A stretch of 64,000 nt of DNA. It comes from a virus. Where the stretch lies: positions 14,596 to 78,595 of IMG/VR virus record IMGVR_UViG_3300000651_000004, one strand, 5' to 3'. Shown piece after piece: positions 5,214-46,935 of the stretch. The position numbers and the translations under genes are program-made. A model generated the notes under the pieces. The model was not told where the DNA came from. It did not search any database and was given only the letters and a program-made list of their open reading frames with translations. Position 1 is the first letter of the stretch. Each line of letters opens with the position of its first letter.

Positions 5214-5310
5214 TGCCGGGAGCAAGAGAGCGTATCTGCTTTGTTTCGGACTCACCTCCTTTCCAAAGCGTGAACGGGCTCCGGTGCGGGTAACTGCACC
5301 CCCGGCACCA
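5214..5310 (+). ncRNA. Putative tRNA-like structured RNA with an anti-Shine-Dalgarno loop
   Basis: TGCCGGG (5214-5220) pairs with CCCGGCA (5301-5307), followed by CCA. GGTGCGG-GTAA-CTGCACC hairpin. The GCTTTG/CAAAGC stem encloses CTCACCTCCTTT. It fills the intergenic gap. Confidence 0.55.
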
Positions 5311-42078: not shown

Positions 42079-43161
42079 CTAGATCGTGTAAAACTCTCTG
42101 GTGTTGGAATAGATGAAAACGTGTCCGAAAGGGATGTCGATCGTCCAGGAGTTCTGCCCCTGGATGGTGGTCCCATCACTGGTGGTAATAGTGATCGGAT
42201 ATTGATCAGCTAGGCCGCCCTCATCCTTGATAAGCAACATGTTATTGGTCCAATGACTTGCATCGGCCAAAACCACTGAAACCGGGGAAGCGATATTGGG
42301 CGTATAAACCGCCACCATCTGTTCAATCCCGCTTAAAACGACCGGAGTTCGAGCAGTTGAAAGCCGGGTAAAAGCGAACCCCACCGGGCTCATCCAATCG
42401 ATTCCAGCTTCAGCTCCAGGGGAAACCGTCAATACCATCCCAGCCAGGGGGCCTACAGGAAGCCGGCGATTTATCACCCCGTCATAAACCATGGTGTCAC
42501 CCTTGGTGGTCAGCGGAGAGATTTCATTAATGGAAACCTTTAGAAGACTTGTATCCAGCCAACGAAATCCAGCGGTTGCCGTTGCATCAGAAATCGGCAC
42601 CTGGTTATCGGCATTGGCGATTACAGCAATATTCTGCTGCCCGTCAGAACCAATCAGTTGCCCTTTGCCGGTCAGAGGGGAAAGCGCAGTAAATGCTGCC
42701 GGTACAGTCGCCTGCCCAGTCCCGCCAAGATTGACGCCTAAGGGGCTGGTCAATTTCCAGGGCGGTCCTTGCGGCCCTTGCAACCCAGCCGGGGTAACCT
42801 GCTGGCCGCTTCCAATATTGGAACCGGGATCTAAATTGCCTGGGTAACCAAGATTGGTGAGCACCATCGTGCTCAAGGTGGAAGTGACGGCAACCTTGAA
42901 ATATCCAACTTCTCCGCTGACCCCGCCGATATAAACGGTTTGTCCTTGAGTCGCCCAGTCAGCCGGGTCGACTTGGACATTCACATTGGCCCCGACATCG
43001 GGCATCGTGAAGCCGGCTTCCGTAATTCCGAAAGCGTTTTCGCCGTCCACACCTTGAAATCCTTGCGGACCCTGCGGTCCCATCGGACCAGGGGGGCCTT
43101 GAGTGCCGCCAACCGGAGGACAATCAGGAGTACACGCGCAACCTAAATCAAGTAATGCCAT
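42079..43161 (-). CDS. Collagen-containing fibre protein with one complete beta repeat
   Basis: N-terminal CACTPDC, GXY runs, the FTMP...PGSNIGSGQQVTPAG repeat, SPLTxKG repeats, IKDEGG C-terminal domain. Confidence 0.8.
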   Translation of the reverse strand: MALLDLGCACTPDCPPVGGTQGPPGPMGPQGPQGFQGVDGENAFGITEAGFTMPDVGANVNVQVDPADWATQGQTVYIGGVSGEVGYFKVAVTSTLSTMVLTNLGYPGNLDPGSNIGSGQQVTPAGLQGPQGPPWKLTSPLGVNLGGTGQATVPAAFTALSPLTGKGQLIGSDGQQNIAVIANADNQVPISDATATAGFRWLDTSLLKVSINEISPLTTKGDTMVYDGVINRRLPVGPLAGMVLTVSPGAEAGIDWMSPVGFAFTRLSTARTPVVLSGIEQMVAVYTPNIASPVSVVLADASHWTNNMLLIKDEGGLADQYPITITTSDGTTIQGQNSWTIDIPFGHVFIYSNTREFYTI

Positions 43162-44103: not shown

Positions 44104-44141
44104 TGAAAACACGTTGCGTGTTCCACGTGGAAACACGCAAC
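44104..44141 (-). terminator. Hairpin after the major capsid gene, probable intrinsic terminator
   Basis: GTTGCGTGTT/AACACGCAAC arms (44113-44141) followed by GTGTTTT on the - strand. Confidence 0.55.
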
Positions 44142-44147
44142 ATTTTG

Positions 44148-45329
44148 TTAACTAGTTGGGCAAGCCGACATATCCAGGAACGTGTCGCAACGCAGGTGTC
44201 GGATCACATAACCGAATGCCGGAATGACTGGCTTGGAGCCTTGCGCTAAAATGGCACGGAAAAAGCCGATGGTGCCGTCCGGATTGTCAGTCTGATGTGG
44301 GATATTCAACCATTTGAATTCACCCCGGTAACTGACCGGATCAAACCGGGTGTTACCCCCAGGAGAGGTAATCGGGGCTGGTACCAGGCTTATCATCACA
44401 TCGTTGTGAAAGATGACCGAGTCAGTATAGAGCGCATTCTCGTAATTGGGGTCGATCTGTGCTTTCTGTCCCTGAGTGGCCGGGGCATTGGCATAGGGAT
44501 ACTGCCGTACCCAGGCACCAGCGGTAAAATTCCACCTCGCCGGCAAATCGTCGACAATATGGAAAAATCCGCCATAAGAGCGCTCAACACCCAGCGGAGC
44601 CAGGAGCTCGTTTGACCGAGAACTGAACCTGTAATCCTCGCGGATATTTGCATTCGACTTGATCAGGTTCTCACTGGTTTCCGCATCGGTGATCAGCCCG
44701 TAAACCGGCCGGCCGTTCTCTCGATCCAGCGGGTTAAGCGAACCGCCGTCACGATTGAGCTTCATGTAAAACTTGCGCAAAATACCTTGCGTAAGTGTTG
44801 CCGTGGGCACGGTCGCCGGGAACCCGGCACCTGCGCCATCAGGAAAGCCGGAAGCGGCAATGATCTGATGCAACGCGAGCCGCGTGTATTCATCCCGGTA
44901 GCGGTTAATCCAGGCGTATGCGCTGTTCTCAGTCAGCACATACATCATGTTGGTCAGCTGCTCTTTGCGCTGGAAGGTGACTCGAAGGTCATTAACGCAA
45001 AGCGGCGGACTCTGAAGAGCCGTATGCTGCAGCTGGTACTGGAGCAAGGTTTGCGCATAGTCGACTTCAGTCACAGGCGGCAAACAGGTGCCACCAACTA
45101 CGCCGGGGCCTGGAGGTGCCGGTGATTGACCGATGTTCTGCCAGACCAGAGGATAGGTTGGCAGTGAACGTTCATAGGTCAGTACTGAAATAATCTGGCC
45201 CATCTCCTCAGGAAACTCTTCTTGTTTCATGAGTTTGAGCCACGGCGACATGTTGAGTGTGCGCCGGTAAATGTCGGGCCCGATACGGCCAGACTCCGTA
45301 ATGAGCTGCTGCTCAATGGTGTAAGAGAT
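44148..45329 (-). CDS. Major capsid protein; probable non-canonical ATC start at 45329 (first ATG at 45251)
   Basis: About 390 aa, following portal and scaffold and followed by a terminator hairpin. AAGGAGG lies 8 nt upstream of the in-frame ATC. Confidence 0.8.
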   Translation of the reverse strand: MSYTIEQQLITESGRIGPDIYRRTLNMSPWLKLMKQEEFPEEMGQIISVLTYERSLPTYPLVWQNIGQSPAPPGPGVVGGTCLPPVTEVDYAQTLLQYQLQHTALQSPPLCVNDLRVTFQRKEQLTNMMYVLTENSAYAWINRYRDEYTRLALHQIIAASGFPDGAGAGFPATVPTATLTQGILRKFYMKLNRDGGSLNPLDRENGRPVYGLITDAETSENLIKSNANIREDYRFSSRSNELLAPLGVERSYGGFFHIVDDLPARWNFTAGAWVRQYPYANAPATQGQKAQIDPNYENALYTDSVIFHNDVMISLVPAPITSPGGNTRFDPVSYRGEFKWLNIPHQTDNPDGTIGFFRAILAQGSKPVIPAFGYVIRHLRCDTFLDMSACPTS

Positions 45330-45508
45330 ACGAGTACCCTCCTTCCGAGGGAAAATGATCCTGAAGACTGAAGCTCAGAGAATTCAGCCGTTTCTCGGAC
45401 CAGGAGGATGGTACCTTTACACTCCGATTTTGAGTGAGATGTACAACCGCTTAACCGGGGGCGACCGTGAGAGAATATCTATCGCTCTAGGGGAGGGATG
45501 GCAAGAAG

Positions 45509-45604
45509 CTATTTCTTCTTCTCTTTCTTCTCTTCTACTGCTTCCTTTTTAATCTTCTCAGCTGCTTTTGCTGCCATCTTTGCCGGTGATTTCTTCTTTG
45601 CCAT
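45509..45604 (-). CDS. 31-aa Lys-rich peptide (not in the ORF track)
   Basis: MAKKKSPAKMAAKAAEKIKKEAVEEKKEKKK. Confidence 0.5.
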   Translation of the reverse strand: MAKKKSPAKMAAKAAEKIKKEAVEEKKEKKK

Positions 45605-45648
45605 AATCCGCTACAGGTACGCGATGTGACTAGCAATTAGCAAGTGAA

Positions 45649-46935
45649 TTACCGTCGAGAAGGATTTCTAATTTTCGACTCAATAGCATCGATAAAACTC
45701 ATCCCGTCATCGGCTGTCGGACTGCCAGGAGCAACTTGGCCATTGCCCTCACCACCAGTGGCGCGACCGCCACCAGCACCAGGAGTAACTCCCTGATAAC
45801 GCTGCAACCCCTTGGCAGCATCCTGATACATGTTCCAAAGCTGATGGATTGTTACAAGCGCACGCGGCAATAACGCCGCCTGAACCAGAATCCTGGCGCG
45901 ATCAGTTGGAGCCAGGGTTGCTAAATCAGTTCGGGCAACAAGCTCCTTGGTTGCCTCTAAATCATTGTTCCATTGATCATTGCCTTCAATGGGACGCGCA
46001 AGGTAAACCTCGTCACCAAGCATTTTCCACGCTTTCTTTTGCGCGCCATTCCATTCGTTGGCGCTTTCAACCTTGGTACGCTCAACTTCCGCTACGCGCT
46101 TGGATTCGATATAATCCAGGGCTTGTTTAACATCGGCCTGCAGAACACTTTTTCGCCGAATGATTTCCCGAGCGTCATCGGAGAGCTTGAACAAATTGAT
46201 TTTGTCCCGATCGTTGAAAGTCTCAGTAACTCTGCTCAACAGATCCCCCTGTTTATCCCGATCAGACTCAATCAATGCTTCCCGGATTCGGCCGGCACCA
46301 ATATTGTATTTATTCGAGAGCCGTTTGAGCTCACCCTCAATCGCCTCCATCGGAGCTTGTACCGCGCGCTGATACTCCGGAGTCTTTTCCAGTTTTACCA
46401 GGCGCAGCTCTTTGGAAAGATTGTCCCGTTCGCCGGTAAGCTTCTCAAACTCATCGGTGGCCATCGGGGTTTTGCCGTCAAACTCTTTTAACCGCGCTTC
46501 AGCGTCCTTAATCCGATTGATCAATTCAGCGTTCTGTTTGGAAAGCGCCTGGTTAGAAGTTCGCAAACGCCCCCAGGTATCTTTAGCCTGCGGAGTTGCC
46601 GCGCCAGGAAGCTCTTCGGGAAAATCCTCGTGCTCCAGAGCTTTTACTGGAGCCTGCGCCGGTTGTTCCTGCCCCTTTTCAACAACTTTTTCAACCTGCT
46701 GGCCAAACGCGAGTTTTGAAAAATCCGGTAGTAACGCTTTCGCCGCCTGTTCGGGTGTCGTCTCAGGAATAACAGGTTTAGCTGGCTGATCAGGTGATTC
46801 TTCAGAAGGAGGAGGTGCCTGTTTATTTAAAGATGGTATCTTTGGATTTTCTTTGAGTGACGCGCCGATCTGGTCACTCATGAAATCCTCAAACTTTGCC
46901 GGGGGTGGTGTGGGGGGTGCCGCTGTTTCACTCAC
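45649..46935 (-). CDS. Capsid scaffolding protein (putative)
   Basis: Pro-rich N-terminus and coiled coil; between portal and capsid; GGAGA upstream of the GTG. Confidence 0.7.
   Translation of the reverse strand: MSETAAPPTPPPAKFEDFMSDQIGASLKENPKIPSLNKQAPPPSEESPDQPAKPVIPETTPEQAAKALLPDFSKLAFGQQVEKVVEKGQEQPAQAPVKALEHEDFPEELPGAATPQAKDTWGRLRTSNQALSKQNAELINRIKDAEARLKEFDGKTPMATDEFEKLTGERDNLSKELRLVKLEKTPEYQRAVQAPMEAIEGELKRLSNKYNIGAGRIREALIESDRDKQGDLLSRVTETFNDRDKINLFKLSDDAREIIRRKSVLQADVKQALDYIESKRVAEVERTKVESANEWNGAQKKAWKMLGDEVYLARPIEGNDQWNNDLEATKELVARTDLATLAPTDRARILVQAALLPRALVTIHQLWNMYQDAAKGLQRYQGVTPGAGGGRATGGEGNGQVAPGSPTADDGMSFIDAIESKIRNPSRR

What the first reader, a model, noticed from the sequence alone, without database searches (positions are those of the whole stretch)
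45251..45480. Major capsid gene appears to initiate at AUC behind a hairpin-masked strong SD
Seen: the frame is open upstream of the ATG at 45251 (ISYTIEQQLITESGRIGPDIYRRTLN) back to a TGA near 45375, with no ATG, GTG, TTG or CTG. AAGGAGG (45338-45344) lies 8 nt before the ATC at 45329, and part of it is paired in CCCTC-GGAAG-GAGGG. Most genes in this window lack such an SD. Established: AUU/AUC starts are IF3-sensitive (for example infC). Inference: capsid synthesis is gated by initiation-fidelity control, possibly linked to the anti-SD RNA at 5214-5310.
Basis: partly seen in the sequence, partly recalled or inferred. Interest (0 to 1): 0.7.

Follow-up and report, generated by a model that had tools for sequence, protein, structure and literature searches.

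The report
Phage capsid gene starting at AUC
The major capsid gene of this uncultured soil phage almost certainly starts translation at the weak codon AUC (AUU in its closest relatives) behind an unusually strong ribosome-binding site. This is a known kind of non-standard start that gene finders miss, so they cut 26-33 residues off the protein.

Summary
The minus-strand gene 44148-45329 encodes an HK97-fold major capsid protein whose nearest solved structures are N4-type coats.

- **The N-terminal arm needs the ATC.** The 26 residues before the first ATG (45251) are conserved across more than 580 homologue clusters. Homologues begin exactly at the codon aligned with ATC 45329-45327.
- **Close relatives carry real start codons there.** At that position they have ATG, GTG or TTG.
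- **ATC is not an error.** An independent assembly at about 82x depth and a sister sample give ATC. A separate contig 82% identical (L111) and a 2025 soil run carry ATT.
- **The clade is a single lineage.** At least ten distinct proteins in public data were called from the internal Met. They form one well-supported group.
- **The arm is translated.** Its codons show 5 synonymous and 1 non-synonymous change within this group.
- **The ribosome-binding site tracks start-codon weakness.** Predicted pairing to the 16S tail is -12 kcal/mol for the ATC/ATT genes and -3 to -5 for the ATG relatives. Most genes in this genome have no such site.

The predicted hairpin over the ribosome-binding site exists but is no better than shuffled sequence. 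IF3 gating and the link to the 5214-5310 RNA have no support here.

This is a new member of a known kind (infC, pcnB, S. aureus cvfC1/ccpN). The scan has reported similar phage cases on other DNA. A conserved structured leader upstream is worth a separate look.

The parts
44148..45329 (-). Major capsid protein gene as re-annotated: 393 codons from ATC 45329 to the stop at 44150-44148. HK97 fold.
   Evidence: Searches give the homologues. One search gives an AF2 model with pLDDT 87.4. One search gives best PDB matches to the N4, DEV and Moo19/B2 coat proteins (probability 1.00).
45327..45329 (-). Proposed initiation codon ATC (AUC). It is orthologous to ATG, GTG or TTG in relatives and to ATT in the nearest relatives.
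   Evidence: Searches show the codon-level alignment of loci. One search shows X1 (82x) and X2 identical, and X5 with 45327 G>A on the plus strand, which is ATT on the gene strand.
45337..45344 (-). Shine-Dalgarno AAGGAGGG, 7-8 nt before the ATC. It is the strongest credible SD in the genome.
   Evidence: -12.2 kcal/mol to 5'-ACCUCCUUA-3', against -3.3 to -5.4 in the ATG relatives. One search gives the genome-wide SD census.
45337..45351 (-). Predicted local hairpin CCCUC-GGAAG-GAGGG that covers the 3' part of the SD.
   Evidence: predicts it in the window and in L111. It is not better than shuffles, and it is absent in the ATG, GTG and TTG relatives.
45249..45251 (-). Internal ATG (Met27). 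Most gene callers use it as the start (367-aa calls). No SD precedes it.
45252..45326 (-). Codons 2-26, the N-arm. The model has a helix at residues 5-24. The arm contains the nearly invariant GRIGPDIY motif.
   Evidence: Searches show 5 synonymous and 1 non-synonymous change inside the AUH clade.
45375..45377 (-). In-frame TGA that closes the frame upstream.
45330..45509 (-). 180-nt conserved non-coding leader between a small basic ORF and the capsid start.
   Evidence: 89.6% identity to L111, with an 85-nt run of 100%, against 79.5% and 71.7% in the two upstream coding regions. X5 shows 4 changes in 181 nt here against 24 in 251 nt of coding sequence. One search excludes an antisense ORF.
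45403..45408 (-). UCCUCC box. It has the same sequence as the 16S anti-SD core and is invariant in all nine related leaders. It is predicted to pair with the SD in cis.
   Evidence: Searches show the invariance. One search shows SD partners at -67 to -80 in the window, and likewise in L111, L005 and partly L001.
45366..45396 (-). Candidate H-type pseudoknot. Stem 1 is GAGAA (45396-45392) with UUCUC (45382-45378). Stem 2 is GGCUGAA (45389-45383) with UUCAGUC (45372-45366).
   Evidence: Searches show compensatory changes in each stem. One search finds the same topology as the best pseudoknot in 7 of 9 leaders, with 3-12 of 200 shuffles reaching the score in six of the seven and 33 of 200 in L001.
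44111..44143 (-). Terminator-like 14-bp hairpin with a U-rich tail directly after the capsid stop codon.

Best explanation
The major capsid protein is translated from AUC 45329, read by initiator tRNA. By analogy with other near-cognate starts, the protein should therefore begin with Met (Met-Ser-Tyr-Thr-Ile-Glu...).

Start-site selection is driven by an extended SD (AAGGAGGG) 7-8 nt upstream. This is inferred. An ancestor of this soil-phage clade lost the canonical start, with ATG changing to ATT. The window's lineage later changed ATT to ATC.

The loss was tolerated or compensated by a much stronger SD. The clade has since diversified with the AUH (AUC/AUU) start intact.

The gene is a normal, functional HK97-fold capsid gene. 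Public gene calls that begin at Met27 or Met34 are truncated.
For: **Shown**
1. More than 580 homologue clusters exist. Full-length members start 13-19 residues before the RIGPDIY motif, and the Met of M[AP]Y[TD]I aligns with the ATC.
2. At that codon, close relatives have ATG (L001, L002, L003, L084), TTG (L005, L083) or GVG-type GTG (L085). L111 has ATT.
3. L111 is only 82% identical over 1131 nt, so it is a separate lineage.
4. Logan contigs give ATC in X1 (82x, probably the source sample) and X2. A variant about 94% identical, from a 2025 study, has ATT.
5. Cluster mates of P0001 include ten distinct 367-aa calls starting at MSPW, on 15 contigs. They form one clade with support 99/98, sister to a member with a canonical start.
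6. Inside that clade the N-arm codons changed 5 times synonymously and once non-synonymously, at the variable second residue. My own binomial estimate is P about 0.005 against a neutral 3:1 expectation.
7. No other start is available. The frame holds no canonical start, and no ORF in another frame could feed in.
8. SD strength rises as the start codon weakens: -12.2 and -12.1 for AUH, -10.0 and -5.9 for TTG, -6.0 for GTG, -5.4 and three times -3.3 for ATG.
9. The N-arm forms a confident helix in the model.

**From the literature**
- AUC, AUU and AUA initiate at 0.1-3% of AUG in E. coli, and AUC-initiated GFP carries an N-terminal Met (10.1101/063800).
- Behind extended SDs in S. aureus, AUU and AUA give about 10-30% of AUG (PMC13009471).
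- Start-codon downgrades tend to be compensated by stronger SDs (PMC5622118).
Against: - There is no direct evidence of the protein N-terminus or of ribosome position. No RNA run was available.
- A major capsid protein is needed in hundreds of copies, so a start worth a few percent of AUG in E. coli seems costly.
- The SD and the start codon are predicted to be largely base-paired. Unpaired probabilities are 0.17 and 0.08, lower than in the ATG relatives.
- The SD-versus-start-codon trend rests on nine related sequences, which are not independent.
- Strong SDs also precede ATG-started capsid genes in more distant relatives.
- The host is unknown, so the anti-SD sequence and initiation stringency are assumed to be standard.
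Confidence: 0.8

Rival explanations
1. Regulatory reading. The AUH start, together with SD masking, makes capsid synthesis conditional. The condition could be the IF3-to-ribosome ratio, a factor that opens the leader, or the 5214-5310 RNA that displays an anti-SD sequence. This reading accepts initiation at AUC and adds a switch.
For: - The AUH start is kept across a diversified clade.
- The 180-nt leader is more conserved than the neighbouring coding sequence. It holds an invariant UCCUCC box and two covarying stems.
- Folds pair the SD with that box or with a local hairpin.
- IF3 discrimination against AUU is established for infC (own knowledge; cited in PMC13009471).
- The 5214-5310 element folds stably (z -3.2) and can pair with the SD over 9 bp by my reading.
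Against: - Relatives with ATG, GTG or TTG starts and weak SDs carry the same leader architecture. The leader is therefore not tied to the AUH start.
- Neither fold beats shuffled sequence.
- The genome has no IF3, bS21 or tRNA gene.
- Any CCUCC-containing RNA is complementary to any SD, so the 5214-5310 match is not specific.
- That element was not found in related genomes.
- Nothing shows that it is expressed.
Confidence: 0.12
2. Translation starts at the internal AUG 45251. The virion protein then lacks the N-arm, and the upstream open frame is a relic.
For: - It is the first canonical start.
- Most gene callers chose it.
Against: - No SD or A-rich tract precedes it.
- The upstream 26 codons are under purifying selection within the AUH clade.
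- They contain the family's nearly invariant GRIGPDIY motif.
- In most homologues this position is Thr or Ser rather than Met.
- The N-arm helix is an integral part of the confident model.
Confidence: 0.05
3. The ATC is a sequencing or assembly error, or this genome is a defective variant with a dead capsid gene.
For: - ATG to ATC is a single-base change.
- The record is a metagenome assembly.
Against: - An independent assembler gives ATC at 82x, and a sister sample agrees.
- Two further lineages have ATT.
- The clade holds ten or more distinct protein variants on many contigs, up to 44 kb long.
- The rest of the gene is intact and under selection.
Confidence: 0.01
4. Initiation occurs at another near-cognate codon further upstream in the same frame (ATC 45359 or ATT 45356). 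This would give a protein 9-10 residues longer.
For: Both codons are in frame, lie after the TGA, and are conserved in L111.
Against: - No SD lies upstream of them.
- The SD itself would then be coding sequence.
- No homologue has residues there, because their N-termini align with 45329.
- The conservation is explained by the leader being conserved as a whole.
Confidence: 0.02

Closest known systems
AUU-initiated E. coli infC and pcnB. NCBI table 11 lists ATT, ATC and ATA as rare bacterial starts.
   Same: - A near-cognate AUH codon is read by initiator tRNA behind an SD.
- The codon is conserved among relatives.
- Standard gene finders miss it.
   Different: - infC encodes IF3 and regulates itself through IF3's discrimination against AUU. 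The gene here is a virion structural gene, and the genome has no IF3.
- pcnB uses AUU to keep expression low, whereas a capsid protein is needed in bulk.
- The codon here is AUC in the window and AUU in its relatives.
S. aureus cvfC1 (AUU), ccpN (AUA), infC (AUA) and citZ (AUA), all behind extended SD motifs (PMC13009471).
   Same: - A conserved non-canonical AUH start is paired with an unusually long SD close to the start.
- Measured output in that system is about 10-30% of AUG. That makes an AUH start on an abundant protein plausible.
   Different: - Those are low-abundance regulators in an SD-rich Firmicute.
- The case here is the main late structural gene of a phage whose other genes mostly lack an SD.
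- There are no experimental data for it.
Compensated start-codon downgrades (Belinky, Rogozin and Koonin 2017, PMC5622118).
   Same: Within one shallow clade the start codon switches among ATG, GTG, TTG and ATH. SD strength rises as the codon weakens.
   Different: - That study covered only switches from AUG to GUG or UUG in cellular genomes.
- Here the downgrade goes further, to AUH.
- Switching is unusually frequent: by my count on the tree, at least 6 changes among sequences within about 20% protein divergence.
Major capsid proteins of N4-like podoviruses (N4 gp56, Pseudomonas phage DEV, Shigella phages Moo19 and B2).
   Same: - HK97 fold of the same size class. Best Foldseek hits have probability 1.00 and TM about 0.5.
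- The genome is about 78 kb and carries a 3569-aa giant protein.
   Different: - Sequence identity is only 11-13%.
- There is no Pfam or PHROG hit.
- tblastn finds no match in 50,697 GenBank phage records.
Phage T4 gene 32 leader, an upstream pseudoknot that acts as a translational operator (own knowledge).
   Same: A conserved, probably pseudoknotted element sits tens of nucleotides upstream of the start of a phage gene.
   Different: This is an analogy only. The pseudoknot here is a prediction supported by limited covariation. No binding protein or autoregulation is known.

Membership tests
Near-cognate (AUH) translation initiation behind a Shine-Dalgarno sequence | The conserved N-terminal coding sequence has no ATG, GTG or TTG available in frame. 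| tested here: met
   41 open codons before the first ATG hold no canonical start or CTG; the N-terminal 26 residues are conserved family-wide.
Near-cognate (AUH) translation initiation behind a Shine-Dalgarno sequence | The AUH codon occupies the position of the orthologues' start codon. | tested here: met
   ACT CGT ATC in the window aligns with ACA CGT ATG (L002), TTG (L005, L083), GTG (L085) and ATT (L111).
Near-cognate (AUH) translation initiation behind a Shine-Dalgarno sequence | An SD lies at functional spacing, 5-10 nt upstream. | tested here: met
   AAGGAGGG with a 7-8 nt spacer and -12.2 kcal/mol. The spacing is the same in L111.
Near-cognate (AUH) translation initiation behind a Shine-Dalgarno sequence | The non-canonical codon is real and inherited, not an error. 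| tested here: met
   independent assembly at 82x, a sister sample, and an ATT variant in a 2025 run. L111 has ATT; a monophyletic clade of ten or more variants, all called from Met27.
Near-cognate (AUH) translation initiation behind a Shine-Dalgarno sequence | Initiation at that codon is demonstrated by the protein N-terminus, toeprinting or ribosome profiling. | not testable with these tools
   The phage is uncultured, and no RNA run is listed for this stretch.
infC-type IF3-dependent autoregulation or gating | The gene product is IF3, or expression is shown to respond to IF3 level. | tested here: not met
   The product is a capsid protein. No IF3 domain occurs in the genome. Response to host IF3 cannot be tested here.
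HK97-fold major capsid protein | HK97 fold with N-arm, spine helix, and P and A domains, matching solved coat proteins. | tested here: met
   pLDDT 87.4, pTM 0.84, long helix at residues 121-151; 324 PDB matches at E<=0.001, all listed ones being phage or virus coat proteins, with N4 types on top.
HK97-fold major capsid protein | Membership of a curated capsid sequence family (Pfam or PHROGs). | tested here: not met
   Searches give no family at E<=0.01. One search gives no tblastn match in GenBank phages. The assignment rests on fold and gene context only.
SD-sequestering translational operator (cis anti-SD helix or hairpin) | The SD is paired in a helix that is conserved and supported by covariation or by better-than-random stability. 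| tested here: inconclusive
   - The UCCUCC box is invariant in 9 of 9 leaders.
- It pairs with the SD in 3-4 of 8 minimum-energy folds.
- z-scores are -1.1 for the leader and -0.9 for the local hairpin.
- The SD side varies without matching changes in the box.

The most novel reading that the evidence does not exclude
The conserved leader (UCCUCC box, pseudoknot, spacer, extended SD) together with an AUH start could be a dedicated translational switch for the main late protein of this uncultured phage family. In this reading the SD is held closed in cis. It is opened, or start-codon stringency is relaxed, only late in infection, so that capsid synthesis is timed at the level of initiation. 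The frequent start-codon turnover in the clade would then reflect tuning of that switch rather than drift.
Probability: 0.12. Interest if true: 0.7.

Novelty: new member of a known kind. Interest (0 to 1): 0.42.

Why it matters
**Annotation.** Every public gene call for this clade is wrong at the 5' end. IMG's own call for this record (P0280) has 360 aa, and the calls on related contigs have 367 aa. They lack the N-arm, so structure predictions and family models built from them are truncated.

**Biology.** A phage's most abundant structural protein can be maintained for a long evolutionary time on an AUC or AUU start, provided the SD is very strong. This happens in a genome that otherwise hardly uses SDs. 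It adds to growing evidence that near-cognate starts are not confined to low-abundance regulators. That evidence includes other phages found in this scan.

**Start-codon turnover.** The start codon changes unusually often in this clade: ATG, GTG, TTG, ATT, ATC, and possibly ACG in a second lineage. The clade is therefore a natural series for studying the trade-off between start codon and SD.

**Leader.** The conserved structured leader is a candidate new cis-regulatory RNA.

Tried and rejected
**Tools and searches that gave nothing**
I could not fetch the DNA of the other P0001-cluster members or of P0022, P0038, P0005 and P0281. I used the search for related loci instead.
- Pfam and PHROGs gave nothing for the capsid gene or its neighbours, apart from a weak coiled-coil hit in the upstream gene.
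- tblastn against GenBank phages gave no match.
- Rfam over 45150-45750 gave only chance-level hits with E>0.8.
- No RNA holder is listed for this stretch, so expression could not be examined.
- No sigma-70-like promoter was found on the gene strand of the leader.
- The GAGTGTA...TCCTCC motif is not repeated elsewhere in the window, so it is not a recurring promoter box.
- Literature searches for an AUU- or AUC-started phage capsid gene found nothing specific.

**Alternative explanations rejected**
- An antisense 65-aa ORF (45355-45552, plus strand) could have explained the leader's conservation. It is rejected because the ORF is broken in the L001 group and a frame-shifting indel separates L084 from L085 while the nucleotides stay conserved.
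- A frameshift from an upstream ORF in another frame is rejected, because no canonical start could feed in.
- Phage-encoded helpers were sought and not found: tRNA, IF3 and bS21.
- The second AAGGAGG, at about 34745, lies inside the preceding gene's coding sequence.

**The 5214-5310 link**
- The element gave only chance-level matches in related genomes G001, G002 and G005 (E 0.04-0.1). Its neighbouring gene has no homologue in G001 or G002.
- The region is variable, so no comparative test was possible.

**Scans for more relatives**
- Extra scans for relatives of P0022 and P0038 returned no new close loci.
- Alignment A4 was too divergent for a genome scan.

Full report
**What is there.** The window is bases 14596-78595 of a 78,595-bp IMG/VR virus record from a soil metagenome, judged 100% complete. 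On the minus strand, the ORF that gene finders see runs 45251-44148 (367 aa, ATG). The frame is open for 41 more codons upstream, to TGA 45377-45375, and none of them is ATG, GTG, TTG or CTG. AAGGAGG lies at 45344-45338, followed by G. After an 8-nt spacer comes ATC 45329-45327. CCCTC/GAGGG can form a 5-bp hairpin around GGAAG.

**Is it a capsid gene?** Pfam and PHROGs give nothing, and no GenBank phage has a detectable relative. An AlphaFold model built on 57 homologues is confident, with pLDDT 87.4 and pTM 0.84. Foldseek against the PDB returns only viral coat proteins. The top hits are N4, Pseudomonas phage DEV and Shigella phages Moo19 and B2, at probability 1.00. The neighbours fit a head module:
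- an 832-aa gene;
- a 428-aa coiled-coil gene;
- a 31-aa basic ORF;
- a strong terminator-like hairpin right after the capsid stop;
- a 3569-aa giant gene elsewhere in the genome, as in N4-like phages.

So this is the HK97-fold major capsid gene of an uncultured N4-like phage.

**Where does the protein begin?** The family is large. It has 614 hits at 90% clustering and 580 clusters at 50%. Full-length members start 13-19 residues before a nearly invariant RIGPDIY motif. In the alignment the homologues' first residues, M-[AP]-Y-[TD]-I, sit on I-S-Y-T-I of the window. At DNA level, the codon aligned with ATC is as follows:

| Start codon | Loci |
|---|---|
| ATG | L001, L002, L003, L084 |
| TTG | L005, L083 |
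| GTG | L085 |
| ATT | L111 |

The Met at 45251 is Thr or Ser in most of the family, so it is not the ancestral start. In the model, residues 5-24 form the N-arm helix.

**Is ATC real?**
- Logan's independent assembly of the probable source sample covers the site at about 82x with no difference. A sister sample agrees.
- A contig from a 2025 study is about 94% identical. Its only difference between 45279 and 45362 is 45327 G>A, which reads ATT on the gene strand.
- L111 comes from another JGI data set and is 82% identical over 1131 nt. It has ATT with AAAGGAGGG at the same spacing.
- The 90% cluster of P0001 holds ten distinct 367-aa proteins that start at MSPW, on 15 contigs up to 44 kb. It also holds IMG's own 360-aa call for this record.
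- In a maximum-likelihood tree these proteins form one clade (99/98), sister to a member with a canonical start.

An error or a dead gene is therefore excluded. The AUH start arose once and has persisted through diversification. ATT occurs in L111 and in the contig from run X5, so ATT is the likelier ancestral state and ATC the derived one. That last step is inference.

**Is the N-arm translated in this clade?**
- Between the window and L111, codons 2-26 differ at four sites. Three are synonymous and one is S/P at the variable second residue.
- The X5 variant adds two third-position synonymous changes.
- Five synonymous changes against one non-synonymous is far from the roughly 1:3 neutral expectation. 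My own binomial estimate is P about 0.005.
- No ORF in another frame could supply the arm by frameshifting.
- The upstream in-frame ATC and ATT (45359, 45356) have no SD and no counterpart in any homologue.

**How can it work?**
- The SD is the strongest credible one in the genome. A crude gene call finds no SD-like motif before 67 of 86 genes. The only other AAGGAGG lies inside coding sequence.
- Predicted SD:anti-SD energies in the close clade are -12.2 and -12.1 kcal/mol for ATC and ATT, -10.0 and -5.9 for TTG, -6.0 for GTG, and -5.4 and three times -3.3 for ATG.
- This is the compensation pattern described for cellular genomes (PMC5622118). Here it rests on nine related sequences. More distant relatives also combine strong SDs with ATG.
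- In E. coli, AUC, AUU and AUA give 0.1-3% of AUG, and AUC-initiated GFP carries an N-terminal Met (10.1101/063800).
- Behind extended SDs in S. aureus, AUU and AUA give about 10-30% (PMC13009471).

The most economical mechanism is ordinary initiator-tRNA decoding of a near-cognate codon, positioned by an extended SD. The phage brings no obvious helper. It has no tRNA, no IF3 and no bS21.

**Masking and the leader.**
- The local hairpin is predicted in both AUH lineages (-9.2 and -7.9 kcal/mol for 41 nt). Their sequence differences fall in its loop. However, 38-40 of 200 shuffles fold as well.
- Folding 210 nt instead pairs the SD with an upstream box, AUCCUCCU-GG-UCCG. The z-score of the 211-nt fold is only -1.1.
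- The 180-nt leader is clearly functional. It is 89.6% identical between the window and L111, with an 85-nt stretch at 100%. The upstream coding regions are 79.5% and 71.7% identical. X5 shows 4 changes in the leader against 24 in the adjacent 251 coding bases.
- An antisense ORF does not explain this conservation.
- UCCUCC is invariant in nine leaders.
- Right after it, two stems show compensatory changes among three subclades. Together they have the topology of an H-type pseudoknot, found as the best pseudoknot in 7 of 9 sequences.
- ATG-, GTG- and TTG-started relatives with weak SDs share this architecture. It therefore belongs to the capsid gene in general and not to the AUH start.

**IF3 gating and the 5214-5310 RNA.**
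- The element folds stably (z -3.2), and ARAGORN does not call it a tRNA. It contains CACCUCCUUUCC, which is complementary to any SD.
- Neither it nor its neighbouring gene could be found in related genomes.
- No test separates a real link from coincidence. I rate it as unsupported.

**Context.**
- Distant relatives of the capsid gene (32-37% identity) occur on contigs binned with Blastopirellula, Opitutae and Verrucomicrobiales MAGs. This is a weak lead to PVC-group hosts.
- A second lineage, L086 (the P0022 lineage, 63% identical), also lacks any canonical start for its N-arm. The only near-cognate codon in frame is ACG, 7 nt after GAGGG. Its sister P0018 begins M-A-T-E-P-Y.
- By my count on the tree, the shallow clade around the window has changed its start codon at least six times.
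- Earlier notes of this scan report near-cognate starts behind strong SDs in other uncultured phages, capsid genes included. This case is one more instance of a recurring pattern that gene callers miss.

**Verdict.** The reading 'initiates at AUC' is well supported (about 0.8). 'Hairpin-masked' is possible but not shown. IF3 gating and the trans anti-SD RNA are unsupported. This is a new member of a known kind, of moderate interest.

Noticed in passing
window 45330-45509 (minus strand); core 45366-45408: The conserved non-coding leader of the capsid gene is more conserved than the flanking coding sequence. It holds an invariant UCCUCC box followed by two covarying stems that together form a candidate H-type pseudoknot. 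It has no Rfam match and is shared by relatives with ATG, GTG and TTG starts.
   Followed up: partly
L086:1380-1440 (Ga0210406_10003896; protein P0022): A second capsid lineage, 63% identical, also has no ATG, GTG or TTG for its conserved N-arm. The only near-cognate codon in frame is ACG, 7 nt after GAGGG. Its sister P0018 starts M-A-T-E-P-Y. This may be an independent non-canonical start, but it rests on a single contig.
   Followed up: partly
Close clade: L001, L002, L003, L005, L083, L084, L085, L111, window: The capsid start codon is unusually labile. ATG, GTG, TTG, ATT and ATC occur among sequences within about 20% protein divergence, which needs at least six changes on the tree.
   Followed up: partly
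window 45510-45603 (minus strand): A 31-aa Lys/Glu-rich ORF (MAKKKSPAKM...) lies between the coiled-coil (scaffold-like) gene and the capsid leader. It is kept open in L111 (30 aa) despite 72% identity, and its indels sum to a multiple of three. It is probably a real small protein.
   Followed up: partly
window 44111-44143 (minus strand): A 14-bp terminator-like hairpin around the palindrome TTCCACGTGGAA lies directly after the capsid stop. The same palindrome lies upstream of the capsid leader in L083 and L005.
   Followed up: no
window 42179-42230 (minus strand): The 602-aa gene is called from GTG 42179. It has an in-frame CTG at 42209, 8 nt after GAGGG, ten codons upstream of the first canonical start. 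This may be another near-cognate start.
   Followed up: no
window 5214-5310 (plus strand): An intergenic element folds stably (-42.4 kcal/mol, z -3.2) and displays CACCUCCUUUCC. ARAGORN does not call it a tRNA. Neither it nor the downstream gene was found in two related phage genomes.
   Followed up: partly
L141, L142, L143 (GTDB genome contigs): Distant capsid relatives (32-37% identity) sit on contigs of Blastopirellula, Opitutae and Verrucomicrobiales MAGs. This is a weak lead that the family infects PVC-group bacteria.
   Followed up: no
window 44148-45230 (protein P0280): IMG's own gene call for this record has 360 aa and starts at MKQEEF (Met34). The public annotation therefore lacks 33 N-terminal residues.
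   Followed up: yes
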